The translations under genes were made by a program, and so were the position numbers. A stretch of DNA of 64,000 nt from Polaromonas sp. (GTDB taxonomy: Bacteria > Pseudomonadota > Gammaproteobacteria > Burkholderiales > Burkholderiaceae_C). The stretch spans positions 11,493-75,492 of the forward strand of contig JANNKV010000067.1 of the NCBI GenBank assembly GCA_031396485.1, in the 5' to 3' direction. Below the pieces are notes generated by a model that searched no databases, was not told where the DNA came from, and saw only the letters and a list, made by a program, of their open reading frames with translations. Shown piece after piece: positions 1 through 7,820 of this stretch (the first letter of the stretch is position 1; each line of letters opens with the position of its first letter).

Positions 1-17
1 CACTGGGAGCCTCAACC

Positions 18-209
18 ATGAAAAGCATCTATTTCGAGAACGACGACATCCTGCAAATCCGTGTTTCAGACAAACCCATCGTGCGCGAGGTTTCTCAAGG
101 CTGGAATACGAACATCAGCTATGCCGAAGACGGCTCGATTGTTGAGATTGTGTTGCTTGATGCCAAAAAAGAAGGTTTGCTGCCGCTGGAACACAGAAAA
201 GCAGCATGA
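18..209 (+). CDS. DUF2283-like small protein (antitoxin-like)
   Basis: 63-aa ORF. The pattern YFENDDILQIRVSD...DGSIVEIVLLDAKK is typical of DUF2283 small beta proteins. Its stop overlaps the next start (ATGA at 206-209). Confidence 0.55.
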   Translation: MKSIYFENDDILQIRVSDKPIVREVSQGWNTNISYAEDGSIVEIVLLDAKKEGLLPLEHRKAA

Positions 210-511
210 GTGGCAGCACGCTTGAAAGCCAGACAGGAAGCGACAACGTCTTTCGCGACTTGGGGTTTCCTGAAGCTGAGGCGCAAAACCTGCTGCTTCG
301 CGGGGACCTGGTCATTCATATTCGCAAAGTCATCGACAAGCTTGGCATCACGCAAGCAGAAGCCGCCAAGCGCGCTGGCATCACACAGCCACGTATGAAC
401 GATCTGGTGAAAAACCGTACCCATAAACTCACGCTTGATGCGCTGGTCAATGTGGCGGCCAACTTGGGCTATTCAGTGCAGATGCAACTGAAACCTAAAA
501 AGGTTGCGTGA
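206..511 (+). CDS. XRE-family HTH (HTH_37-type) regulator/antitoxin
   Basis: 101 aa. NVFRDLGFPEAEAQ leader plus HTH core LGITQAEAAKRAGITQPRMNDLVKNR, as in XRE antitoxin-type regulators. 4-nt overlap with the upstream ORF. Confidence 0.75.
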   Translation: MSGSTLESQTGSDNVFRDLGFPEAEAQNLLLRGDLVIHIRKVIDKLGITQAEAAKRAGITQPRMNDLVKNRTHKLTLDALVNVAANLGYSVQMQLKPKKVA

Positions 512-550
512 AATTCAACTTAACCGTCGAACCCAGATTGCGATGTACCC

Positions 551-652
551 ATGCCCATGACTGAAAAACAACTGCGCGAACGCGATGCAAAGCGAGATTT
601 GGGCGCAGAGCTGCTTCATTCCATTCAAGAAAGTCGAAGATTCGCCAAATAA
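551..652 (+). pseudogene. possible truncated N-terminal remnant of an XRE/MqsA-type antitoxin at the island junction
   Basis: 33-aa ORF MPMTEKQLRERDAKRDLGAELLHSIQESRRFAK. It resembles only the N-terminal leader (RD-G-E-L-x-x-I-x-E) of such antitoxins, and no HTH follows. It ends where GC content collapses. Confidence 0.3.
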
Positions 653-717
653 TGTCGATTCAGAAGCGCCGACAATTCCAGCGTTGACTTCCCCGATACG
701 TATTATATAAAAAGTCA

Positions 718-1509
718 ATGAATCCAATTATCCGATGGGCGGGAAGTAAAAGGTATTTAGCAAAATATCTTTTGCCGGAATTTCCGAAAACATTAAATCG
801 TTACGTTGAACCATTTTGCGGTTCCGCTAGCTTATTTTTCTTGCTGGAACCCAAAAAAGCACTTCTTTCAGATATTAACTCGGAGCTCATTAATGCTCTT
901 CAATTGATTCGCTCAAACAACCGTGAGGTAATGAATAAATATGAAAGCTTGCCTGACGACAAAGAAGTATTCTATTTGGTTAGATCGCTTGACCCAAATA
1001 CTCTAAGCAGAACAGAACGAGCAGCGCGCTTTCTTTACCTTAACAGACTTTGTTTTAATGGTCTCTATCGTACAAATAAAGCCGGAAGCTTCAACGTTCC
1101 ATACAGTGGTCAAAGAAATTCGAAACTTTTATTAAAAAGGGAAGTGTCGAGCGCCAGCAAGCTACTGACCGGGTGTGAGCTGGTGAACAAAGATTTCAAA
1201 GAAACAATTGGCCGCACCGTTGCTGGCGATTTCATTTATGTCGACCCACCCTACGCATCCACTGATCGAAAATCATTCTGTGAGTACGATGCAAATTCTT
1301 TTGGCACTAAAGACATCGAAGATCTTTGGAACGCATTGAGCTACGCGGACGAAAGGGGGGTGAAATTTATGCTTTCATACACTGAATGTAGCGAGATTTA
1401 CAGATTCTCGCAGCGCTGGTCTACTACGAAAATTCAGGTTCGAAGAAATATAGCTGGCTTTGCAGGACATCGAAAAATGGCTACAGAAGTAGTCATAAAA
1501 AATTACTAA
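718..1509 (+). CDS. Dam-family (D12 class) N6-adenine DNA methyltransferase
   Basis: 263 aa. N-terminal IRWAGSKR, SAM motif EPFCGSASLFF and catalytic YVDPPYAS (DPPY). AT-rich codon usage unlike the rest of the window. Confidence 0.9.
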   Translation: MNPIIRWAGSKRYLAKYLLPEFPKTLNRYVEPFCGSASLFFLLEPKKALLSDINSELINALQLIRSNNREVMNKYESLPDDKEVFYLVRSLDPNTLSRTERAARFLYLNRLCFNGLYRTNKAGSFNVPYSGQRNSKLLLKREVSSASKLLTGCELVNKDFKETIGRTVAGDFIYVDPPYASTDRKSFCEYDANSFGTKDIEDLWNALSYADERGVKFMLSYTECSEIYRFSQRWSTTKIQVRRNIAGFAGHRKMATEVVIKNY

Positions 1510-1522
1510 GGGAAATTGACGT

Positions 1523-2512
1523 ATGCAGAATTCTAGGGAGCGACTCGGCGAATTGGTAAAATCAATGCGCGAACACAAAAGTTTATCGCAAGACACTCTT
1601 AGCAATTCACTTACTGGCATCAACCGATCGAATATTGCACATCTCGAGCAAGGTCTACGCTTACCTCGCCCAGAAATTTTGGAGAAAATCTGCGTTAAGC
1701 TTGATATTCCAAGGAACTATTGGATAGAGTTTCTTAATCAAGACGTGCAAACACGGTCGGATTTTGAAGAACAGCTAGCAGAGTTATGCGGTAGAAGTGT
1801 AACACTCGACGGTCACGAATCTAGTACTCGCTTTGTTGCGGACAAAGCAATACGACGCCTTTTCGACGGTACGCATTCCGAGATACAACTCCACGATTTA
1901 TTTAACAGTATTCTCGTTTTTTATGGGGTTCGACCGGCAAGTAAGGAATTCTTTAACAGATACTTCAACGCCACTAGTTTTGCATCTCCAGACGCATTCA
2001 GAAACTCTGTGCTTGCGTATCAAGAAGATGCAGTTAGGTTATTCAGCACCTTCGAGGATGGTTACGAAAAGCTCAATGAAGCAACTAGTGTGGTTGAGTG
2101 TTTAGCGCCAATCGGAATTAAAGAGACCCATGGCTACAGCGCACGTGCAGATTGGCGAATACCTAATGAAATTGTTGATGAGAGGCTTCCTGATCTTGGG
2201 TATATCTCTGCCGCGAGAGTGAAGCAAGAGAATGATGAGCGAGGCACGCTGAGCAAATTTCTGAAAAACCTAGCGCGCGAGTTTCGTGAAAAGGATTCTG
2301 GTACTGCAGTACTTGCTATTCCAAATAAAACGAAAATCCGGATGGATTCGTTGCTTCGAAAATTCGAATCTCATTTTCAGCACGGCCTCTTTTCACCGCT
2401 ATTTGCACCAAGCGCAGACGAAATTGATCAAGAAGCGGAAAGGCTCGCCCCAAAATCTGACGACGAGATCACCCGAATGGATCAAACACAGATGCGGCGC
2501 TCGAAAATTTAG
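1523..2512 (+). CDS. HTH (XRE-type) domain protein with about 250-aa uncharacterised C-terminal region
   Basis: 329 aa. N-terminal LSQDTLSNSLTGINRSNIAHLEQGLRLPRPEILEKI is a Cro/C1-type HTH. I do not recognise the rest. It starts 13 nt after the methyltransferase stop. Confidence 0.7.
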   Translation: MQNSRERLGELVKSMREHKSLSQDTLSNSLTGINRSNIAHLEQGLRLPRPEILEKICVKLDIPRNYWIEFLNQDVQTRSDFEEQLAELCGRSVTLDGHESSTRFVADKAIRRLFDGTHSEIQLHDLFNSILVFYGVRPASKEFFNRYFNATSFASPDAFRNSVLAYQEDAVRLFSTFEDGYEKLNEATSVVECLAPIGIKETHGYSARADWRIPNEIVDERLPDLGYISAARVKQENDERGTLSKFLKNLAREFREKDSGTAVLAIPNKTKIRMDSLLRKFESHFQHGLFSPLFAPSADEIDQEAERLAPKSDDEITRMDQTQMRRSKI

Positions 2513-2559
2513 CATTCTACCTTGCATCTGATTTTCTAGACGTTTATGTTGCGACTTCG

Positions 2560-3474
2560 ATGCGCTCCGATGCAGACTTTGTTTCAGTTAATGCTTTTAC
2601 TAAAAAATTATTCTTGCATGATCAAGTGAAGGTACTTAAATTGCGTCACTTCAATCCCACACAGTCGTGGATTGACGATAGGATTGCAAAAGGACTTGTT
2701 GAAGCACTAATGCTTAAACGGGCCTCAGTGACCATCTACATGGCACAAAAGACCGATACATTCGGGAAAGACTCAGAAGCTAGCGTGGCCCTTGGTCAAG
2801 GTAAGCCTGTAATTGTTTATGTACCTCGACTTAGCTTCCCGGATGCGTCCGAAGACACTGAAACTTTATTTAAGAAAAGTAGAGCCGAATTGCTGACGAT
2901 GCTTGATGCCGAGAATCGAGAACATATAGATGAAAGCGTCGATCAGCAGGCAATATTTGGATACGTATTAAGTGCATTACTTGGAAAACTAGACAACATA
3001 GCACTGGGCCAAATTGCAGAAACGCACTGGGCTGATTTTGATTTGTATGAAGAGCAAAACCGAATTCCCGAGCTTTATAAATCTCGTTATCGAGAATGGT
3101 TGAACTCTTGCAAAAAGAGTGACTATGCATTAATTACAATTCAAGATTTTCGAGAATCAATAATCAATACGCTTGTCGCAAATGCGATAACTTTCGAACG
3201 ACGCGCGAGACTATTTAGAGAAATTCATCCACTTGCCCTTCAAGTTATTTTATCGACTGGCGTGTTAAATGGAATTTTAGTTGTACGTACAGTTGAACAG
3301 TGCGCGTTAATACTTGCACAGTTGATAAAAAACGACTTGTCATTAGAGTTCTTAAAAGACAATAACAACTACCGCCTGATAGAGAAAAAGACTGGAAGTA
3401 CTGTTCGTGTTATTTCTAGAAACCGACTTTTATTAAATGCATTCTCAATGCACTATCACCGAGCAAACTCATGA
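2560..3474 (+). CDS. uncharacterised protein with nucleoside 2-deoxyribosyltransferase/SLOG-like signature (possibly N-terminally incomplete or frameshifted)
   Basis: 304 aa from the first ATG. The frame is open from 2461 and reads ...ENLAFYLASDFLDVYVATSMRSD (a beta1-like strand) before the ATG. TFGKDSEASVALGQGKPVIVY resembles the D-S-G-x-x-x-E-x-G-x-A-x-x-x-GKP-V/I motif of the NDT/DNPH1 fold. The C-terminal half looks helical. Confidence 0.6.
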   Translation: MRSDADFVSVNAFTKKLFLHDQVKVLKLRHFNPTQSWIDDRIAKGLVEALMLKRASVTIYMAQKTDTFGKDSEASVALGQGKPVIVYVPRLSFPDASEDTETLFKKSRAELLTMLDAENREHIDESVDQQAIFGYVLSALLGKLDNIALGQIAETHWADFDLYEEQNRIPELYKSRYREWLNSCKKSDYALITIQDFRESIINTLVANAITFERRARLFREIHPLALQVILSTGVLNGILVVRTVEQCALILAQLIKNDLSLEFLKDNNNYRLIEKKTGSTVRVISRNRLLLNAFSMHYHRANS

Positions 3475-3965
3475 GCTCAATCTTCGACCCTTCCATTGAA
3501 TCTGAGATACGAAACCACTGCTGGAACTATTTTTCACTACACGCTCAACAAAGAATGAGTGTGTTCCAGTTTTTCATCACACTTGAGACAGGGCTAATTG
3601 GTGCTGGCCTTTTTGTACTGCAATCAAAATTGCAATTTGCTAACTCATATTGGGCAATGGGAATAGGGCCGCTAATTTTTATGTTCGCATTCATTTTTTG
3701 GAAAATAGATCAACGCACGAAGGATCTAATTAAGAATGCGGAAATATCTCTGAAAGAAATCGAATGCTTTTTTCTTCAGAATTCAACAATTGTTAAAACC
3801 CTTCCGTTCTGCAACGATCCACAGAGTGTCGGCCTGATGGCATCATTTCCACTATTCCCTGGTCGCCTTACTTATTCAAAATCTTTTGGTACTGTTTTCG
3901 TCGCTTGTGGAATTTTCGGCGTGTTGTTCACTTTGGTCCTATTTACATCGCTGGTCACAAAATAG
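3471..3965 (+). CDS. small multi-TM membrane protein (2TM SLATT-like effector candidate)
   Basis: 164 aa. The start overlaps the upstream stop (ATGA at 3471-3474). Hydrophobic helices: VFQFFITLETGLIGAGLFVL, YWAMGIGPLIFMFAFIFW and FGTVFVACGIFGVLFTLVLFTSLV. Confidence 0.65.
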   Translation: MSSIFDPSIESEIRNHCWNYFSLHAQQRMSVFQFFITLETGLIGAGLFVLQSKLQFANSYWAMGIGPLIFMFAFIFWKIDQRTKDLIKNAEISLKEIECFFLQNSTIVKTLPFCNDPQSVGLMASFPLFPGRLTYSKSFGTVFVACGIFGVLFTLVLFTSLVTK

Positions 3966-4053
3966 TCATTAGTCGTTTACATAACGAGCAAATTGATAAT
4001 CAGGGCAACTTGTGGCAGATTCCAATTAATTCAGCAGATCAAAGGATCGAACG

Positions 4054-4248
4054 ATGGCTCAAGCGACAAAATCTTCTAACAACCTACTAATCCACTCGCC
4101 TAAAGAGCTGGACAAAGCGCTCAGGCTGTCAGTCGACCGCGCCCGCCGCATGGCTGAAGCCTTTGGCCTAAAAGTGCCAGGCGTTGCACCTAAGCCTTCG
4201 AAAGCCCGTGGCGGCGCTGCGAAGACGCGTCGTGCGCGGAAGGCGTAA
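4054..4248 (+). CDS. small basic hypothetical protein (part of a repeated small-ORF+repeat module)
   Basis: 64-aa ORF with a K/R-rich tail (KARGGAAKTRRARKA). Its 3' two-thirds recur at 10204-10347 and its last ~25 nt recur at 5134-5157. Confidence 0.35.
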   Translation: MAQATKSSNNLLIHSPKELDKALRLSVDRARRMAEAFGLKVPGVAPKPSKARGGAAKTRRARKA

Positions 4249-4265
4249 CGCGCGAGGGCTGGCTT

Positions 4266-4322
4266 GCTACGCTTTTCATAGCTGCTTGCGCACGTATCAC
4301 CTGGGCTAGCGGCCTTTTTGAT
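4266..4322 (+). repeat. intergenic repeat family, copy 1
   Basis: GCTACGCTTTTCATAGCTGCTTGCGCACGTATCACCTGGGCTAGCGGCC core. Confidence 0.9.
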
Positions 4323-4444
4323 GAAGTATCTGCCGATATACGAGTGTGCAACCAGATCGACGAGCCCAAGCTTCAAATGGATGGTGAGTACTGGAATCCG
4401 ACGTTTAGTATCAGCACAGTCGATAAAACCGAAGGAGCACATCC

Positions 4445-5131
4445 ATGTGGAAGACCGACGACGAACTATTTACGCTGATGCGCGAGCGTCTTTTCCCCGC
4501 CGTGGTCGGCGACATTCTGGACACGCTCGGCTACCTTCGGCAGTTCCTGCACCCCCACATTCGGCCCTTAGCCAGCCATATGGTGATTGCAGGGCGCGCG
4601 ATGCCGGTGCTTGAAACGCTGTGCTTCGCTGCGGTAGAGGAACAAGGCAAGTTAGCGCTCTCTCGTCAGCCTTTCGGTCTGCTTTTTGAAGCATTGGATG
4701 ATCTGCGCCCGAATGAGGTCTACGTGGCTACCGGCTGCGCGCCGCAATTCGCGCTGTGGGGCGGACTCATGACCACGCGCGCCCTGCACCTGAAGGCCGC
4801 CGGCGCCGTACTTGATGGCTACTCGCGCGACACGTCTGAAGTGCTGGAGCTCGGCCTGCCGGTGTTCTCTTATGGCGGCTATGCCCAGGACCAGGGGCCA
4901 CGCGGCAAGGTCGTGGACTACCGTGTCGGGGTAGAAATCAACGGCGTGCGCGTGAACCCGGGTGACATCGTTTTCGGCGACCGCGACGGCGTGCTGATCA
5001 TCCCCAGAGAGGCGGAGGAAGAGGCGATACGCAAGGCCCTGGAAAAGGCCAGCAGCGAGAGCGCGGTACGCACCGCCATCCAGAATGGAATGAGTACGGT
5101 CGAAGCCTTCAAGACCTTCGGGGTCATGTGA
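4445..5131 (+). CDS. RraA-family protein (RraA/HMG-aldolase-like fold)
   Basis: 228 aa. LFPAVVGDILD...GGLMTTRALHLKAAGAVLDGYSRD...PGDIVFGDRDGVLIIP matches the RraA/dimethylmenaquinone methyltransferase-like family pattern. Confidence 0.75.
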   Translation: MWKTDDELFTLMRERLFPAVVGDILDTLGYLRQFLHPHIRPLASHMVIAGRAMPVLETLCFAAVEEQGKLALSRQPFGLLFEALDDLRPNEVYVATGCAPQFALWGGLMTTRALHLKAAGAVLDGYSRDTSEVLELGLPVFSYGGYAQDQGPRGKVVDYRVGVEINGVRVNPGDIVFGDRDGVLIIPREAEEEAIRKALEKASSESAVRTAIQNGMSTVEAFKTFGVM

Positions 5132-5170
5132 GCGTCGTGGGCGGAAGGCGTAACGTGAGAGCGCTTGGTT

Positions 5171-5257
5171 GCTACGCTTTTGATAGCTGCTTGCGCACAC
5201 TTTACCTGGGCTAGCGGCCTATTTCATCTGAAATTACGTCCAATAAACCGCTATTTT
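5171..5257 (+). repeat. intergenic repeat family, copy 2 (long form)
   Basis: Core plus the 3' extension ATTTCATCTGAAATTACGTCCAATAAACCGCTATTTT. Preceded by a remnant of the small-ORF tail (cgtcgtgggcggaaggcgtaacg). Confidence 0.9.
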
Positions 5258-5301
5258 GAGTACCGCCCGGCCCTAAAAAGCAATCCAGCTAAACTCGGCC
5301 C

Positions 5302-5592
5302 ATGCGCCCTTCCGAAGCCCTCAACCTGCACCGCACCCGCATCCGCGAGATTGCGCTGAGCCACCGTGTGACGGCCGTTCGGGTGTTCGGCTCTGCCCTG
5401 CGCGGTGACGATGTGCCGGGCAGTGATCTGGACTTGCTGGTCGAGCCCACGCCGCAAACCACGCTGATGGACATTGGCGCTATTCGGTTCGAACTGAAAA
5501 AGCTGCTGGGGCTGGAAGTCGATGTGCTCACCCCGAACGGTTTGCCTGCGAAGTTTCGCGAGCAGGTTTTGCGCGAAGCGTTGCCGGTATGA
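5302..5592 (+). CDS. mntA: MntA-type nucleotidyltransferase antitoxin
   Basis: 96 aa. VFGSALRGDDVPGSDLDLLV is the minimal nucleotidyltransferase GS-x(n)-DxD motif. 4-nt overlap (ATGA) with the HEPN gene. Confidence 0.85.
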   Translation: MRPSEALNLHRTRIREIALSHRVTAVRVFGSALRGDDVPGSDLDLLVEPTPQTTLMDIGAIRFELKKLLGLEVDVLTPNGLPAKFREQVLREALPV

Positions 5593-5939
5593 GCCGCGCA
5601 GACCCGCTCCGGATTGCTGATTACCTTCAGCACGTCTTCGAGGCAATCGACAATATTCAGGAATACACCTCGGGGATGGAACTGGCTGCCTATATGGCTG
5701 ACCGCAAAACCCGCGATGCGGTTATACGCAACCTGGAGGTGATCGGCGAGGCCTGCAACAACGTCGCAAAACATCACCCAGAATTTGCGGCAAAACACAA
5801 CGCAATTCCGTGGGGATTCGCGTATGAGATGCGCAATGCACTTTCACACGGCTACTTCACCGTTGACCACGCAATCGTTTGGCAAACCATTCAGCAGGAC
5901 TTGCCGAAACTACAGGCTCAGGTCGCCAGGTTAACTTGA
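5589..5939 (+). CDS. hepT: HepT-type HEPN (DUF86) RNase toxin
   Basis: 116 aa. R-x4-H-x-Y motif (MRNALSHGY). The DUF86-type N-terminus and the pairing with an MNT gene both fit. Confidence 0.85.
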   Translation: MSRADPLRIADYLQHVFEAIDNIQEYTSGMELAAYMADRKTRDAVIRNLEVIGEACNNVAKHHPEFAAKHNAIPWGFAYEMRNALSHGYFTVDHAIVWQTIQQDLPKLQAQVARLT

Positions 5940-5954
5940 TTCAGCGGACGAATT

Positions 5955-6040
5955 GCTACGCTTTTGATAGCTGCCTGCGCACGTATCACCTGGTCTAGCG
6001 TCCTATTTCACCTGAAATCTATCCAATAAACGTCGTTTCT
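5955..6040 (+). repeat. intergenic repeat family, copy 3 (long form)
   Basis: GCTACGCTTTTGATAGCTGCCTGCGCACGTATCACCTGGTCTAGCGTCC plus the ATTTCACCTGAAAT...CCAATAAAC extension. Confidence 0.9.
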
Positions 6041-6593
6041 CTGGCCACGCAATGCCCGCACCGGGGGTGCGCAGAGTCGAGTTAACCACCAACCAGCGCC
6101 ATAGCTGCGGATTGCCCGGGCTATCAGCGCCTTGGGCCAACGCCGGCTAGGGCCTTACGCTTTTGATCGCCATCCGGTTCGGTGCAGGCCCGTTGCAGAA
6201 CTTCGCGAAGAACAGGATTTGACCAAACTTGGTCACACCACGCCCGTTCCTCCCGACCTGCTAATGCCCTCCCGCTTCTCCTCTGACCTGTCCGGTGCGC
6301 AAGTCCAATGAAGGCCAGTTTTTACGGGCAGTGTATTTCAGGGATTAGCAGCGCGGCGCTACCGTGCCGGCTGACATGCGATGCATTGGCGACACCTGCC
6401 AGTCCCAGTGGCCCAGGAATTGCAAAAGCGTCGCTGGAAGTAAGTATTTAGTAGGCGGTTTCATTCGCCTGCCCTTACGGCCACAAAGACCTATCGTCGC
6501 CAACTTACAACAAAAATCGGTAAATAGTAGTACCAAAAACCTAATTTCAAGGTTTTATTTGACTACTCTTTCACGCTTCTGAAAGGAAAGTCA

Positions 6594-7820
6594 ATGCGTT
6601 TGCTGAATCAAATCAATAGAAGGCTGGTACCGGCCGGCAAGGTTATCGTCCTTGTAGCTTCACTGCTGCTTGCGTCCTGTGGAGGCTCATCAGGCGCGGA
6701 TTCATCGACGTCGAATACGGTGGCGGCTTCCGGAAACACCGGTCAGCCTGCTCCATCGACTCAGCCTGCTTCAGTTCCCCCTGATGCAAGTCCTCCTGCT
6801 GCTGTACCCGCGAAAGATGGCAACGGAAAGCTCAAAATTTTCATCCTGGCTGGCCAGTCCAACATGGTCGGCTATGGCAAGGTCGATTTAGGGGCTGACC
6901 TTAGCAAAGCCAGTCGTACGCCGCATATTCTGGGTGGGGCGGGCAGCTTGAGGGCCATGGTCAACAACAATCCGGCTGTTTATAGCTACCTGGTGGACGC
7001 CACCAAATCGACCACTTACACCATTGCTGCCAATGCGGCCACCGGAGCCGCTGCCGATACCAAAACCTACCCAAGTTGGGCCACACGCAGCGATGTCTGG
7101 GTCTCAAGCTGGGATGAAGGAGCGATCGGCAAAACGACGGAGCGACGAAAAGGTGCGCTAAGCGTGGGTTTTGGTGACGAAAATGTCTTGCCTGCTGGCT
7201 ATATAGGGCCGGAGTTTGGCTTTGGGCACATCGTGGGCAATGGATTGGTCGACAAGGTGCTGCTGGTCAAAACGTCATGGGGCGGCAAGTCATTGGCAGT
7301 GGACTTCAGGCCACCTGGCTCTGGCGGCACCACCGGGCCTTATTACAACGAGATGCTGGCCAAAGTCCGGCTGGTGCTGTCCGACATTAAAAAATATTAC
7401 CCCGAATATGACGGGAAAGGTTTTGAGGTTGCTGGCCTGGGTTGGCATCAAGGCTGGAATGATCGCGTCAATGCCGCGTATGTGAATGAGTATGAATTTA
7501 ATCTGGCCAACCTGATCAGGGATGTTCGCAAGGACCTGAATTTACCCCTGCTGCCAGTGGCCATCGCCAATACTGGCATGGCCAACGCAGACAGCGACCC
7601 CGTGGCCGTAAAACTGATTGCAGCACAGGGCAATGTCGCTGACCCGAAAAAATACCCTGAATTTGCTGGCAACGTCAGCACCGTTGACACCCGCCCATTT
7701 CACTATCCGCAAACATCGCCTGAAATTGGATTTATATACCACTGGAACTACAACGGCGAAAGCTACTTTCATATAGGTGAAAGTATGGGAGTAGCCATGT
7801 TGAAACTGATCAAGCCATAA
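6594..7820 (+). CDS. lipoprotein, GQSNM-type carbohydrate esterase (sialate O-acetylesterase/DUF303-like)
   Basis: 408 aa. Lipobox LLLASC. FILAGQSNMVGYG is the SGNH-like nucleophile block of the sialate O-acetylesterase family. Low-complexity P/A/S linker. Confidence 0.7.
   Translation: MRLLNQINRRLVPAGKVIVLVASLLLASCGGSSGADSSTSNTVAASGNTGQPAPSTQPASVPPDASPPAAVPAKDGNGKLKIFILAGQSNMVGYGKVDLGADLSKASRTPHILGGAGSLRAMVNNNPAVYSYLVDATKSTTYTIAANAATGAAADTKTYPSWATRSDVWVSSWDEGAIGKTTERRKGALSVGFGDENVLPAGYIGPEFGFGHIVGNGLVDKVLLVKTSWGGKSLAVDFRPPGSGGTTGPYYNEMLAKVRLVLSDIKKYYPEYDGKGFEVAGLGWHQGWNDRVNAAYVNEYEFNLANLIRDVRKDLNLPLLPVAIANTGMANADSDPVAVKLIAAQGNVADPKKYPEFAGNVSTVDTRPFHYPQTSPEIGFIYHWNYNGESYFHIGESMGVAMLKLIKP

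What the first reader, a model, noticed from the sequence alone, without database searches (positions are those of the whole stretch)
640..4050. AT-rich island with a compact Dam-MTase / HTH-protein / NDT(SLOG)-like / multi-TM operon: candidate uncharacterised defence system
Seen in the sequence:
- GC falls from over 60% to roughly 35-40% (sampled by eye) between about 640 and 4050.
- Inside that span four co-directional ORFs are packed tightly. There is a 13-nt gap at 1509/1523. The second and third reading frames overlap around 2461-2560. There is an ATGA stop/start overlap at 3471-3474.
- Gene 1 is an unambiguous DPPY N6-adenine methyltransferase.
- Gene 2 has a Cro/C1-type HTH plus about 250 aa that I cannot place.
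- Gene 3 contains DVYVATSM... and TFGKDSEASVALGQGKPVIVY. This resembles the strand-1 and catalytic-Glu motifs of the nucleoside 2-deoxyribosyltransferase/DNPH1 (and wider SLOG/TIR-like Rossmannoid) fold.
- Gene 4 is a 164-aa protein with an N-terminal soluble helix and then hydrophobic helices.

Established knowledge: NDT/SLOG-like nucleotide-processing domains and small 2TM (SLATT-type) membrane effectors recur in nucleotide-centred conflict systems, as described in comparative-genomics work on CBASS/Pycsar/Thoeris-like systems. Orphan or accessory Dam-type methylases often ride on defence islands.

Inference: I see no recognisable restriction nuclease, cyclase, TIR or STAND NTPase, so this does not fit a named system I know. 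It could be a methylation-linked abortive-infection module, with the HTH protein as sensor/regulator, the NDT-like enzyme depleting or modifying nucleotides, and the membrane protein as effector. The neighbours (DUF2283/XRE, MntA/HepT) are also defence/TA-type, which is consistent with a defence hotspot.
Basis: partly seen in the sequence, partly recalled or inferred. Interest (0 to 1): 0.85.

Follow-up and report, generated by a model that had tools for sequence, protein, structure and literature searches.

The report
Broken methylase-linked nucleotide-glycosidase gene cassette
A foreign, AT-rich three-gene cassette (adenine DNA methylase, a large uncharacterised DNA-binding protein with a nucleotide-cleaving-type domain that a one-base deletion has broken here, and a small membrane protein) belongs to a widespread unstudied family that looks like an anti-virus or anti-plasmid module, but no function has been shown.

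Summary
The AT-rich island is real: 41.5% GC at 640-4050 against 61% in the rest of the window. It holds three genes, not four.

- **Methylase.** 718-1509 is an intact Dam/D12 N6-adenine methyltransferase.
- **Broken core gene.** Homologues are single ~650-aa proteins. A near-identical metagenome contig (L072) carries the intact allele.
- **Domains.** The protein has an XRE HTH, an alpha-helical domain, a Rossmann-like domain, a helical insert and a conserved alpha/beta C-terminal domain. Foldseek matches the Rossmann-like domain to NDT, DNPH1, MilB and TIR structures, with weak statistics. No sequence profile detects that relationship.
- **Family.** It is large, has no Pfam, NCBIfam or PADLOC model beyond the HTH, and is compositionally foreign in most hosts. 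It is usually a solitary gene. One member carries an N-terminal ThsB-like TIR domain.
- **Partners.** D12 methylases recur in 11 of 67 genome loci, in several arrangements. The membrane gene (3471-3965, RipA/8xMP family, not SLATT) recurs in about 5. The full trio recurs in Rhodoferax ferrireducens T118 and two Burkholderiales MAGs.

Best reading: a mobile conflict module built around a regulated nucleotide N-glycosidase, inactive in this genome. The methylase's role is unresolved. A plain R-M system is unlikely.

The parts
640..4050 (.). AT-rich horizontally acquired island (41.5% GC against about 61% in the rest of the window)
   Evidence: The same cassette is also low-GC relative to its flanks in Rhodoferax L001, L004 and L005.
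718..1509 (+). Intact D12/Dam-family N6-adenine DNA methyltransferase, 263 aa, with a DPPY motif
   Evidence: PF02086 E=6e-47. TIGR00571 scores 229 bits against a cutoff of 115. PADLOC MTase_II E=1.5e-71.
1523..3474 (+). One gene for a ~650-aa HTH / helical / NDT-like / C-terminal-domain protein, here a frameshifted pseudogene read as ORFs 1523-2512 and 2560-3474
   Evidence: The fused translation matches many ~650-aa proteins over their full length. The AF2 model of orthologue P0006 has pLDDT 87.8 and pTM 0.81.
1541..1720 (+). XRE/Cro-C1-type helix-turn-helix domain (residues 7-66)
   Evidence: HTH_19 E=1.4e-9 and HTH_31 E=1.9e-7. Profile hits in the PDB include PlcR and C.BclI.
2495..2496 (+). 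Site of the 1-nt deletion (GC-GG here, GCAGG in the intact allele) that breaks the reading frame
   Evidence: Alignments with Rhodoferax L001 and with L072 (intact) and L071 (same deletion).
2536..2865 (+). Rossmann-like NDT/DNPH1/TIR-like domain: strand DVYVATSM, then RHFNPTQSW, then TFGKDSEASVALGQGKPVIVY
   Evidence: Foldseek against the PDB finds 2a0k, 6qai, 7o62, 4jem, 9i58, 8qhr, 8btn and 8fz9, at probability 0.9-1.0 and target-normalised TM-score 0.4-0.5. BFVD hits are NDT and CMP/hmCMP hydrolase proteins. The core motif residues are near-invariant.
2776..2778 (+). Codon of the invariant Glu in GKDSE, the candidate catalytic nucleophile
   Evidence: Invariant in alignments A3 and A6. At least 95% conserved in 128 representatives. 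It falls in register with the Glu of the GYELG motif of human DNPH1 in a manual alignment; the DNPH1 sequence was verified.
2866..3474 (+). Helical insert plus a conserved alpha/beta C-terminal domain (REIHPLALQVILSTGVLNGILVVR...), with no structural match
   Evidence: High-confidence model with no credible Foldseek hit for this region. It is conserved in the HTH-less subfamily.
3471..3965 (+). 164-aa membrane protein with three predicted TM segments, of the RipA/8xMP family; its start overlaps the upstream stop (ATGA)
   Evidence: PF24838 E=1.4e-5, 25.4 bits, below the gathering score of 30. Homologues score 33-37 bits. A source names one homologue 'RipA family octameric membrane protein'. 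Hydropathy.

Best explanation
**What it is.** The region is a mobile, AT-rich three-gene cassette:
- a Dam-type m6A DNA methyltransferase;
- a ~650-aa multidomain protein;
- a small RipA/8xMP membrane protein.

**The core protein.** The 650-aa protein is the core component. Its domains run in this order: an XRE HTH, an alpha-helical domain, a Rossmann-like domain of the NDT/DNPH1/TIR kind, a helical insert, and a conserved C-terminal alpha/beta domain. The Rossmann-like domain carries a conserved Tyr...Ser-x-Arg...Gly-Lys-Asp-Ser-Glu set of residues.

**Proposed activity (inferred).** I propose it is a regulated N-glycosidase that cleaves a nucleotide. The substrate would be NAD+ or a (deoxy)nucleoside monophosphate. 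It would act in a conflict or abortive-infection-type response against phages or other mobile elements. This is how TIR, retron NDT-like and DNPH1/MilB-type enzymes use the same fold.

**Role of the partners (speculative).** In the HTH-bearing subfamily the enzyme is probably tethered to DNA, or controlled through it. In the lineages with a tightly linked D12 methylase, adenine methylation probably sets that control, either as a self mark or as a safety catch. The membrane protein is an accessory, either a sensor or a second effector.

**State in this genome (shown).** A 1-nt deletion breaks the core gene, so the cassette is non-functional here apart from the methylase and possibly the membrane protein.

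**Status of each step.**
- Shown: the gene structure, the frameshift, the fold resemblance, residue conservation, horizontal mobility and the linkage statistics.
- Inferred: the catalytic activity, the substrate and the defence role.
- Speculative: the methylation-control step.
For: **One gene, broken here**
- The fused translation matches full-length ~650-aa proteins at up to 84% identity.
- The break is a 1-nt deletion relative to Rhodoferax. A sibling assembly, L072, carries the intact allele.

**Fold and catalytic residues**
- The AF2 models have pLDDT 87.8.
- All high-probability Foldseek hits for the Rossmann-like domain are NDT, MilB, DNPH1 or ThsB/TIR structures.
- The motif residues D17, Y19, S23, R25, D89, G92, K93, D94 and E96 are at least 95% conserved across 128 representatives clustered at 50% identity.

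**A large family without annotation**
- 593 representative clusters match at E<1e-3.
- An HTH-less ~460-aa subfamily is homologous over the whole core: hhalign probability 100%, E=4e-87.
- No curated family exists beyond the HTH.

**Immune-type signs**
- One member, P0215, carries an N-terminal ThsB/PDC-S66-like TIR domain.
- The gene has lower GC than its flanks in 43 of 62 loci, by 7 points on average.
- Neighbours include transposases, an integrase, PemK, the Bil system, DISARM and Hma components, and DndB-like proteins.
- Copies are repeatedly pseudogenised: L020, L042, L061, L068, L070 and this window.

**Linkage**
- D12 methylases lie within three genes in 11 of 67 species-level loci, on either side. 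Some overlap the core gene's end, as in L027, L031 and L036.
- No other methylase class recurs.
- The trio Dam / 650-aa / 8xMP sits in L001 and L004 (after glnS), in L005 and in the window, that is, in three different genomic contexts.

**Precedent**
- Retron-Sen2 RcaT is described as an NDT-like domain plus a DNA-binding domain.
- It is triggered by Dam methylation of its msDNA partner (10.1101/2020.06.22.160242; PMC8632793).
Against: - No experiment or curated model supports any activity.
- The NDT/TIR relationship rests on fold only:
  - Foldseek E-values are 0.01-0.2 and target-normalised TM-scores 0.4-0.5 over about 100-115 residues.
  - Pfam, the PDB profile search and hhalign against DNPH1 all find nothing.
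- Identity of at least 50% across phyla, with about 100 invariant positions, is unusual for fast-evolving defence proteins. It fits a metabolic or housekeeping enzyme as well.
- More than 50 of 67 loci have neither the methylase nor the membrane gene, so any methylation-dependent mechanism cannot be general.
- In L005 the methylase has its own GIY-YIG/RAMA partner. In L026 and L036 it pairs with a DndB-like gene. The methylase may therefore belong to a neighbouring module.
- No homologue was found on plasmids or phages.
- I did not compute defence-island enrichment against a background.
Confidence: 0.45

Rival explanations
1. It is a novel R-M system. The 650-aa protein would be a sequence-specific 'restriction glycosylase': the HTH finds the site and the NDT-like domain excises a base from unmethylated DNA. 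The Dam-type methylase would protect host DNA, as M.PabI does against R.PabI.
For: - The methylase and the large gene form tight operons: a 13-nt gap here, and overlapping ends in L027, L031 and L036.
- Only D12-class methylases recur next to the family.
- The HTH resembles R-M controller proteins such as C.BclI, C.AhdI and C.Esp1396I.
- NDT enzymes work through a covalent deoxyribosyl-Glu intermediate (established knowledge).
Against: - More than 50 of 67 loci, and all seven loci examined for the HTH-less subfamily, lack any adjacent methylase. A toxin aimed at unmethylated DNA should not survive alone.
- The HTH-less majority has no recognisable DNA-binding domain.
- No known enzyme with the NDT fold acts on polymeric DNA (from memory, not tested).
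- In L005 the methylase already has a GIY-YIG/RAMA nuclease partner.
Confidence: 0.12
2. It is a nucleotide-metabolism or pool-sanitising enzyme rather than an immune effector. It would be a DNPH1/MilB-like hydrolase for modified (d)NMPs, such as N6-methyl-dAMP released from Dam-methylated DNA or hydroxymethyl-pyrimidine nucleotides. The HTH would provide autoregulation.
For: - The closest folds are DNPH1 (hmdUMP hydrolase) and MilB (hmCMP hydrolase).
- The Y...SxR stretch after the first strand lines up with YFCGSIRGG of DNPH1 in a manual alignment; the DNPH1 sequence was verified.
- Nucleotide enzymes lie in the same low-GC islands:
  - thymidylate-kinase-like genes in L020, L026, L037 and L050;
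  - dCTP-deaminase-like plus FMN-oxidoreductase genes in L026, L035 and L066.
- The very high sequence conservation suits a small-molecule enzyme.
- DNA-alkylation-repair and Ada-like genes neighbour the gene in L077 and L078-L080.
Against: - The distribution is patchy and the gene is compositionally foreign, with frequent pseudogenes. This is not what an ordinary metabolic gene looks like.
- One member is fused to a ThsB-like TIR domain.
- Neighbours include transposases, an integrase and defence genes.
- At 460-650 aa with extra domains, it is far larger than the ~150-aa NDT and DNPH1 enzymes.
- The nucleotide-enzyme neighbours occur in only 3-4 loci each.
Confidence: 0.18
3. The cassette is not one system. 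The large protein would be a stand-alone module, alone or with the membrane gene, and the Dam methylase an orphan or R-M remnant that merely travels with it in defence islands.
For: - The family is mostly solitary.
- In L005 a GIY-YIG/DUF4357(RAMA) gene sits directly upstream of the methylase in the same low-GC block.
- In L026 and L036 the methylase pairs with a DndB-like gene, in L026 on the opposite strand from the large gene.
- In L006 and L062 the methylase is three genes away.
Against: - Eleven of 67 loci carry the same methylase class and no other class recurs. I estimate, without computing a background, that this is well above random adjacency.
- Overlapping or near-overlapping gene ends occur in two separate clades.
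- The trio moves as a unit between three different genomic contexts.
Confidence: 0.2
4. The large protein is only a transcription factor. The Rossmann-like domain would be a non-catalytic, SLOG-like ligand sensor, and the protein would regulate the neighbouring methylase and membrane genes.
For: - Sources annotate it as an XRE-family regulator.
- The N-terminal half weakly resembles HTH-plus-helical-repeat peptide or ligand sensors such as ComR, Rgg and PlcR.
- SLOG and LOG domains share the G-x-G-x-x-x-E type motif (from memory).
Against: - The larger HTH-less subfamily has the same core and no DNA-binding domain.
- Near-invariant polar residues (D, Y, S, R, K, D, E) cluster where NDT and DNPH1 have their active sites.
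- No LOG or SLOG structures appear among the Foldseek hits.
- Most members have no conserved neighbour to regulate.
Confidence: 0.05

Closest known systems
Retron-Sen2 RcaT and the retron NDT-like effectors
   Same: RcaT is described as an NDT-like domain combined with a DNA-binding domain in one effector protein. Its toxicity is controlled through bound DNA and is triggered by Dam (GATC) methylation of that DNA (10.1101/2020.06.22.160242; PMC8632793). The cassette here likewise has an NDT-like domain, a DNA-binding HTH and a recurrent link to Dam-type methylases.
   Different: - There is no reverse transcriptase or msDNA gene nearby.
- The domain order is reversed, with the HTH at the N-terminus.
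- The protein is 650 aa and has two further conserved domains.
- No PADLOC model hits the core of the protein; I assume, but did not check, that PADLOC v2 carries retron-effector models.
- The methylase is encoded by the cassette itself rather than by the invader.
DNPH1 / MilB / BlsM / nucleoside 2-deoxyribosyltransferases (Pfam clan CL0498)
   Same: These are the best structural matches for the Rossmann-like domain. The Glu falls after the equivalent strand in a G-x-x-x-E...GKP-type motif. The Tyr and Ser-x-Arg after the first strand fall in register with DNPH1 in a manual alignment.
   Different: - No sequence-profile similarity was found.
- Those enzymes are single-domain proteins of about 150 aa. 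This domain is embedded in a 460-650-aa protein.
- The substrate is unknown.
TIR and TIR-like NADase effectors (ThsB/Thoeris, DUF4062 Swarozyc)
   Same: - Fold-level similarity to ThsB and to Bacillus cereus and MyD88 TIR domains.
- Both are single-chain proteins that combine a Rossmann-like N-glycosidase domain with an auxiliary domain.
- Both have a patchy, horizontally transferred distribution, as described for DUF4062 (10.64898/2026.05.01.722283).
- One family member is itself fused to a ThsB-like TIR domain.
   Different: - No TIR or DUF4062 HMM hit on the core domain.
- The NDT-clan structures rank above the TIR structures.
- NADase activity is untested.
Type II R-M systems with a controller (C) protein, and restriction glycosylases of the R.PabI type
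   Same: A Dam-class methylase sits in a tight operon with a gene whose N-terminus is a C-protein-like HTH. An N-glycosidase chemistry is conceivable.
   Different: - There is no nuclease or half-pipe fold.
- The 'R' candidate is solitary in most genomes.
- The HTH is fused to the large protein rather than being a separate protein.
Francisella RipA / Pfam 8xMP (PF24838)
   Same: Gene 4 and its homologues match this family of small inner-membrane proteins.
   Different: - RipA's function is unknown. It is linked genetically to LpxA in Francisella (PMC4322802).
- The window protein scores below Pfam's gathering score.
- Here the gene is translationally coupled to the large protein. In Sulfurimonas it is fused to an OmpA-like peptidoglycan-binding domain.

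Membership tests
D12/Dam N6-adenine DNA methyltransferase (PF02086, TIGR00571) | Full-length HMM match above the curated cutoff | tested here: met
   PF02086 scores 160.9 bits against a cutoff of 22. TIGR00571 scores 229 bits against 114.85 and covers 1-262 of 267 positions.
D12/Dam N6-adenine DNA methyltransferase (PF02086, TIGR00571) | Catalytic DPPY motif and an N-terminal SAM-binding motif | tested here: met
   The translation contains FIYVDPPYAST and EPFCGSASLFF.
D12/Dam N6-adenine DNA methyltransferase (PF02086, TIGR00571) | GATC specificity (true Dam equivalog) | tested here: inconclusive
   The E. coli Dam equivalog model NF008152 scores 116 bits against a cutoff of 441. The target sequence is unknown and needs methylome data.
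Nucleoside 2-deoxyribosyltransferase / DNPH1 clan (PF05014 and relatives) | Sequence-profile match to a family of the clan | tested here: not met
   No Pfam hit, even at E<=10 on the isolated domain. The profile search against PDB sequences finds nothing relevant. hhalign against DNPH1 gives probability 0.4%.
Nucleoside 2-deoxyribosyltransferase / DNPH1 clan (PF05014 and relatives) | Rossmann-like fold superposable on NDT/DNPH1 | tested here: met
   Foldseek hits 2a0k, 6qai, 7o62, 4jem, 9i58 and 8qhr have probability 0.96-1.0, target-normalised TM-score 0.41-0.52 and 99-116 aligned columns, but E-values of only 0.01-0.16. BFVD hits to NDT proteins have rmsd 3-4 A.
Nucleoside 2-deoxyribosyltransferase / DNPH1 clan (PF05014 and relatives) | Conserved nucleophilic Glu after the fourth strand, plus a Tyr after the first strand | tested here: inconclusive
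   E96 and Y19 are at least 95% conserved. They fall in register with GYELG and YFCGS of DNPH1 by manual alignment only. I had no structural superposition output to confirm this.
TIR domain (PF13676 / PF01582) | HMM match on the Rossmann-like domain | tested here: not met
   No TIR hit on window proteins or on P0006. TIR structures appear only as lower-ranked fold matches. The TIR hit in P0215 is a separate N-terminal domain.
   The only Pfam hit is 8xMP. PADLOC finds nothing. There are three hydrophobic segments.
RipA / 8xMP (PF24838) | HMM match above the gathering score | tested here: inconclusive
   The window protein scores 25.4 bits against 30. Homologues L062, L064 and L013 score 33-37 bits. 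38 of the 39 listed homologues carry a precomputed PF24838 hit, and one is named 'RipA family octameric membrane protein' by UniRef.
Classical type II restriction-modification system | A nuclease partner adjacent to the methylase | tested here: not met
   No nuclease domain by Pfam, NCBIfam, PHROGs or PADLOC. No nuclease fold in Foldseek.
Classical type II restriction-modification system | Obligate linkage of the restriction component to a cognate methylase | tested here: not met
   A methylase lies within three genes in only 11 of 67 loci. None was seen in the seven HTH-less subfamily loci.
Known defence systems (PADLOC-DB v2.0.0) | Any model hit beyond generic domains | tested here: not met
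   Only MTase_II/oMTase and HTH models (HTH_VI, the RmrA N-terminus, capH, control proteins) hit. DefenseFinder and later databases could not be run.
Retron with an NDT-like effector | An adjacent reverse transcriptase and msr/msd ncRNA | tested here: not met
   No RT domain among the ORFs of window 1-7000 or in related loci. I did not search for the ncRNA.

The most novel reading that the evidence does not exclude
The 460-650-aa proteins would be a new, widespread family of stand-alone immune effectors built on an NDT/DNPH1-like N-glycosidase. The family has 593 clusters at 50% identity and spans many bacterial phyla. In the HTH-bearing branch the enzyme would read the adenine-methylation state of DNA, set by its own Dam-type methylase, to tell self from invader. 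It would then answer by destroying a nucleotide pool instead of cutting DNA. That would be an 'epigenetic abortive-infection' logic midway between R-M and Thoeris or retron systems, optionally coupled to a RipA-type membrane protein.
Probability: 0.12. Interest if true: 0.85.

Novelty: new variant of a known kind. Interest (0 to 1): 0.55.

Why it matters
**If the family is an immune effector.** It would add a very widespread, highly conserved and entirely unannotated protein to the set of NDT/TIR-superfamily nucleotide-cleaving defences. It spans hundreds of 50%-identity clusters in Myxococcota, Sericytochromatia, Acidobacteriota, Bacteroidota, Planctomycetota, Burkholderiales and Campylobacterota. 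It would also give a first functional context for RipA/8xMP membrane proteins, whose role in Francisella is unknown.

**The methylase link.** The specific, repeated link to D12 adenine methylases makes a testable suggestion. Self/non-self marking by m6A may be coupled to effectors other than nucleases. The only precedent I found is Dam triggering of retron-Sen2 RcaT.

**If it is a nucleotide-sanitising enzyme.** It would be a bacterial counterpart of DNPH1 biology.

**A natural control.** This window carries a loss-of-function allele, and a sibling metagenome carries an otherwise identical intact allele.

Tried and rejected
**Sequence searches**
- Pfam, NCBIfam, PHROGs and PADLOC on the separate ORFs and on intact homologues recognised only the methylase, the HTH and 8xMP.
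- Profile searches of PDB sequences with the whole protein and with the isolated Rossmann-like domain gave only HTH hits and noise.
- hhalign of the domain profile against human DNPH1 gave no signal. The query profile has low diversity and the target is a single sequence.
- The gene 4 protein has no PDB relative.

**Structure searches**
- Whole-protein Foldseek was dominated by HTH hits and weak ComR/Rgg hits. Modelling only the C-terminal half was needed to bring out the NDT-clan hits.
- The helical insert and the C-terminal domain found no structural match.

**Mobile-element searches**
- tblastn against plasmid and phage collections found nothing.
- IMG/VR scans found none for the HTH form and a single contig for the HTH-less form.
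- I looked for att-like flanking repeats, tRNA genes, promoters and terminators around the island. Nothing exceeded chance.

**Literature searches**
- Searches for '8xMP' and 'octameric membrane protein' were uninformative.
- Searching by accession found no paper.

**Ideas I dropped**
- Programmed frameshifting. All homologues are single ORFs, and an intact allele differs from this one by one base.
- Sequencing error as the sole explanation. The site is not a homopolymer, and the deletion recurs in an independent assembly. I cannot fully exclude it.
- The thymidylate-kinase neighbours being the housekeeping tmk. In L020 and L037 they share the island's low GC.
- A general link to DNA-alkylation repair. 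It appeared in only 2 of 7 lookups (against 68, 71-74).

Full report
**1. The observation**

The compositional island is real.
- GC is 41.5% over 640-4050, against 60.9% for the rest of the window.
- It is the lowest 3.4-kb stretch in the 64 kb.

There is a 13-nt gap after the first ORF and an ATGA overlap before the last.

The flanking genes are toxin-antitoxin-like, as claimed. Upstream are DUF2283 and an HTH_37 protein. Downstream are a MntA-type nucleotidyltransferase and HepT.

**2. Three genes, not four**

- The frame of 'gene 3' is open upstream to 2461 but has no start codon before 2560.
- A fusion of the two frames at about 2491 gives a 650-aa protein. It matches full-length ~650-aa proteins at up to 84% identity and 100% coverage. 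One of them is ABD69549 of Rhodoferax ferrireducens T118, at 82%.
- DNA alignment shows that the window lacks one base (CAGATGC-GGCG) relative to Rhodoferax.
- Public assemblies of the same sequence exist.
  - L071 (SRR20217202) has the same deletion and the same split ORFs.
  - L072 (SRR20217207) is identical over the aligned 243 bases except for an extra A (CAGATGCAGGCG), which keeps the frame open.
- The site is not a homopolymer. I conclude that the frameshift is a genuine loss-of-function variant that is not fixed in the population.
- Programmed frameshifting is excluded, because every homologue is a single ORF.

**3. The three products**

*(a) The methylase.* 718-1509 is an intact D12/Dam-family m6A DNA methyltransferase. 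Its specificity is unknown, because it fails the E. coli Dam equivalog cutoff.

*(b) The large protein.*
- I modelled orthologue P0006 with a 48-sequence alignment (pLDDT 87.8, pTM 0.81). I also modelled the window's C-terminal half (pLDDT 87.8, pTM 0.85).
- The domain order is as follows:
  - an XRE HTH (residues 1-66);
  - an all-alpha domain (about 70-335);
  - a three-layer Rossmann-like domain (about 339-435);
  - a helical insert (about 446-571);
  - a small alpha/beta C-terminal domain (about 585-650).
- The whole chain gives only HTH hits and weak ComR/Rgg/PlcR-type hits.
- For the C-terminal half, every high-probability hit falls on the Rossmann-like domain and belongs to one superfamily. 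The hits are:
  - nucleoside 2-deoxyribosyltransferases (2a0k, 6qai, 7o62, 8rh3);
  - MilB CMP N-glycosidase (4jem);
  - DNPH1 (9i58, 8qhr);
  - ThsB and other TIR domains (8btn, 9b7d, 8fz9, 8w8m).
- The viral structure library gives the same answer: NDT, CMP/hmCMP hydrolase and DUF4406 proteins.
- The statistics are weak. E-values are 0.01-0.2 and target-normalised TM-scores 0.4-0.5 over about 100-115 residues.
- No sequence method sees the relationship.
- By manual alignment, TFGKDSEASVALGQGKPVIVYV lies in register with SLGVGYELGRAVAFNKRILCLF of human DNPH1. VYVATSMRSD lies in register with LYFCGSIRGG. I verified the DNPH1 sequence against PDB chains.
- This register places the invariant Glu on the GYELG Glu, which I recall as the DNPH1 nucleophile. 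It places the Tyr on the YFCGS Tyr, which I recall as catalytic in rat Rcl. That step is inference.
- These residues (D17, Y19, S23, R25, D89, G92, K93, D94, E96 in C-half numbering) are at least 95% conserved in 128 representatives of the wider family.

*(c) The membrane protein.* 3471-3965 encodes a 164-aa protein with three hydrophobic segments.
- It belongs to the RipA/8xMP family (PF24838). The window copy scores below the gathering score, its homologues score above it, and UniRef names one 'RipA family octameric membrane protein'.
- It is not SLATT.
- RipA's function in Francisella is unknown (PMC4322802).

**4. The family and its contexts**

*Size and subfamilies*
- A full HMMER scan with the HTH-less C-terminal half finds 593 clusters at 50% identity with E<1e-3, and 285 with E<1e-30.
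- Besides the ~650-aa HTH form there is a larger ~460-aa subfamily without an HTH. It has at least 2,454 clusters at 90% identity.
- That subfamily is homologous over the whole core: hhalign probability 100%, E=4e-87, residues 67-653 against 10-477. It has no Pfam domain at all.
- One member, P0215, carries an N-terminal TIR domain of the ThsB/PDC-S66 type.

*Distribution of the HTH form*
- I examined 67 species-level genome loci of the HTH form.
- The gene has lower GC than its flanks in 43 of 62 loci, by 7 points on average. The gap reaches about 19-22 points in Nannocystaceae and other Myxococcota MAGs, Flavipsychrobacter and Bordetella.
- Several copies are truncated or split: L020, L042, L061, L068 and L070.
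- There are no homologues in the plasmid or phage collections. IMG/VR gives one contig, for the HTH-less form only.

*Recurrent neighbours*
- Only two neighbours recur: D12 methylases in 11 of 67 loci and 8xMP genes in about 5.
- No other methylase class recurs.
- Methylase-linked members fall mainly in two clades plus L062.
- Their arrangements differ.
  - The methylase is immediately upstream in the window, L001, L004, L005 and L007.
  - It is immediately downstream, with overlapping ends, in L027, L030, L031 and L036.
  - It is convergent, or two to three genes away, in L019, L026, L006 and L062.
- The full trio occurs in L001 and L004 (after glnS), in L005 and in the window, that is, in three different contexts. 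It is low-GC in each.

*Other genes in the low-GC blocks*
- thymidylate-kinase-like genes (L020, L026, L037, L050);
- dCTP-deaminase-like plus old-yellow-enzyme-like genes (L026, L035, L066);
- DndB-like proteins (L026, L036);
- a ParB_N protein (L006);
- a radical-SAM gene (L037);
- a GIY-YIG/DUF4357(RAMA) gene just upstream of the methylase (L005).

*Contexts of the HTH-less subfamily*
- Seven lookups showed solitary genes.
- Their neighbours were IS3 transposases, an integrase plus PemK, a Bil system, and DNA-alkylation or Ada-like genes. No partner was conserved.

**5. Interpretation**

What is shown:
- The cassette is mobile and its central gene is broken.
- The fold of the central domain resembles the NDT/DNPH1/TIR group.
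- A polar residue set is near-invariant.
- The family is horizontally mobile and mostly solitary.
- It has a specific but minority linkage to D12 methylases.

What I infer:
- The protein is an N-glycosidase acting on a nucleotide.
- It serves in genetic conflict. The arguments are its patchy and compositionally foreign distribution, the TIR fusion, its neighbours from mobile elements and defence systems, and its repeated decay.

Why a plain R-M reading is unlikely:
- No nuclease is present.
- The candidate 'R' gene is solitary in most genomes.

What remains open:
- The role of the methylase is unresolved.
- The most economical idea is that m6A on DNA bound by the HTH sets the enzyme's activity. 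Retron-Sen2 RcaT is a precedent. It is an NDT-like plus DNA-binding toxin triggered by Dam methylation of its msDNA (10.1101/2020.06.22.160242; PMC8632793).
- In L005, L026 and L036 the methylase may instead belong to an adjacent module.
- A metabolic, DNPH1-like sanitising role remains a serious rival. It is favoured by the extreme conservation and by the nucleotide-enzyme neighbours.

**6. Novelty and score**
- No curated family, PADLOC model or paper that I could find covers the core ~580 residues.
- The fold class and the general logic (an NDT/TIR-type effector with sensor domains) are known. I therefore rate this a new variant of a known kind.
- Interest is moderate to high for the family. 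It is tempered by three things: no function is demonstrated, the fold assignment is statistically weak, and the copy in this window is a pseudogene.

Noticed in passing
window 2495-2496; L071 and L072: The inactivating 1-nt deletion is polymorphic. L071 (SRR20217202) shares it. L072 (SRR20217207) has the intact frame in an otherwise identical sequence. This gives a natural pair of loss-of-function and wild-type alleles.
   Followed up: yes
window 18-511; L071 96-840: A toxin-antitoxin-like gene string lies just upstream of the island: DUF2283 (18-209) and an HTH_37 protein (206-511). In the longer contig L071 a DUF4258 gene precedes them.
   Followed up: partly
window 5302-5939 and 4445-5131: A MntA-type nucleotidyltransferase plus HepT toxin-antitoxin pair with overlapping genes (5302-5592 and 5589-5939), and an RraA-like aldolase gene (4445-5131), lie downstream of the island.
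   Followed up: partly
window 4054-4248: A 64-aa Lys/Arg-rich ORF sits at the right edge of the island and matches no family. The same ORF follows the 8xMP gene in L072, L073 and L074.
   Followed up: no
L026 2895-11164: A Chitinophagaceae low-GC block (0.32-0.36 against 0.43-0.49 in the flanks) holds seven genes: a 157-aa ORF, a thymidylate-kinase-like gene, an old-yellow-enzyme-like gene, a dCTP-deaminase-like gene, the 650-aa gene, a DndB-like 799-aa gene and a Dam methylase. It looks like a nucleotide- or DNA-modification cluster.
   Followed up: partly
L005 4165-5034: A 289-aa GIY-YIG protein with a DUF4357/RAMA domain sits directly upstream of the Dam methylase, in the same low-GC block as the 650-aa and 8xMP genes. 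It is a possible restriction partner for the methylase.
   Followed up: partly
L062 7941-9104; L064 1102-2244: In two Sulfurimonas MAGs the 8xMP protein is fused to a C-terminal OmpA-like peptidoglycan-binding domain. In L062, a HerA-like ATPase and a 438-aa gene of unknown function lie between the Dam methylase and the 650-aa gene.
   Followed up: partly
P0215 (695 aa): A member of the HTH-less subfamily carries an N-terminal TIR domain. PADLOC places it closest to PDC-S66 and ThsB.
   Followed up: partly
L020, L042, L061, L068, L070: Other genomes carry split or truncated copies of the 650-aa gene, for example 469 plus 216 aa in L020. The family decays repeatedly.
   Followed up: partly
L083 7891-10723; L084 6465-9297: A Bil (ubiquitin-like) defence gene set (BilD_N/ThiF, BilA_UBL) and an HTH plus Peptidase_M78 pair lie next to a 486-aa HTH-less family member in Nitrospiraceae.
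   Followed up: no
L078-L080 (about 5090-5750); L077 8128-10030: Small proteins with an Ada zinc-binding domain lie directly upstream of the HTH-less homologue in Thermodesulfobacteriota contigs. Two AlkD-type DNA_alkylation genes lie downstream in cyanobacterium TDX16. The pattern was not seen in the other lookups.
   Followed up: partly
L087 8001-9356: This is the only IMG/VR viral contig (21.8 kb) that encodes a relative of the HTH-less subfamily, at 42% identity. I did not examine its gene content.
   Followed up: no
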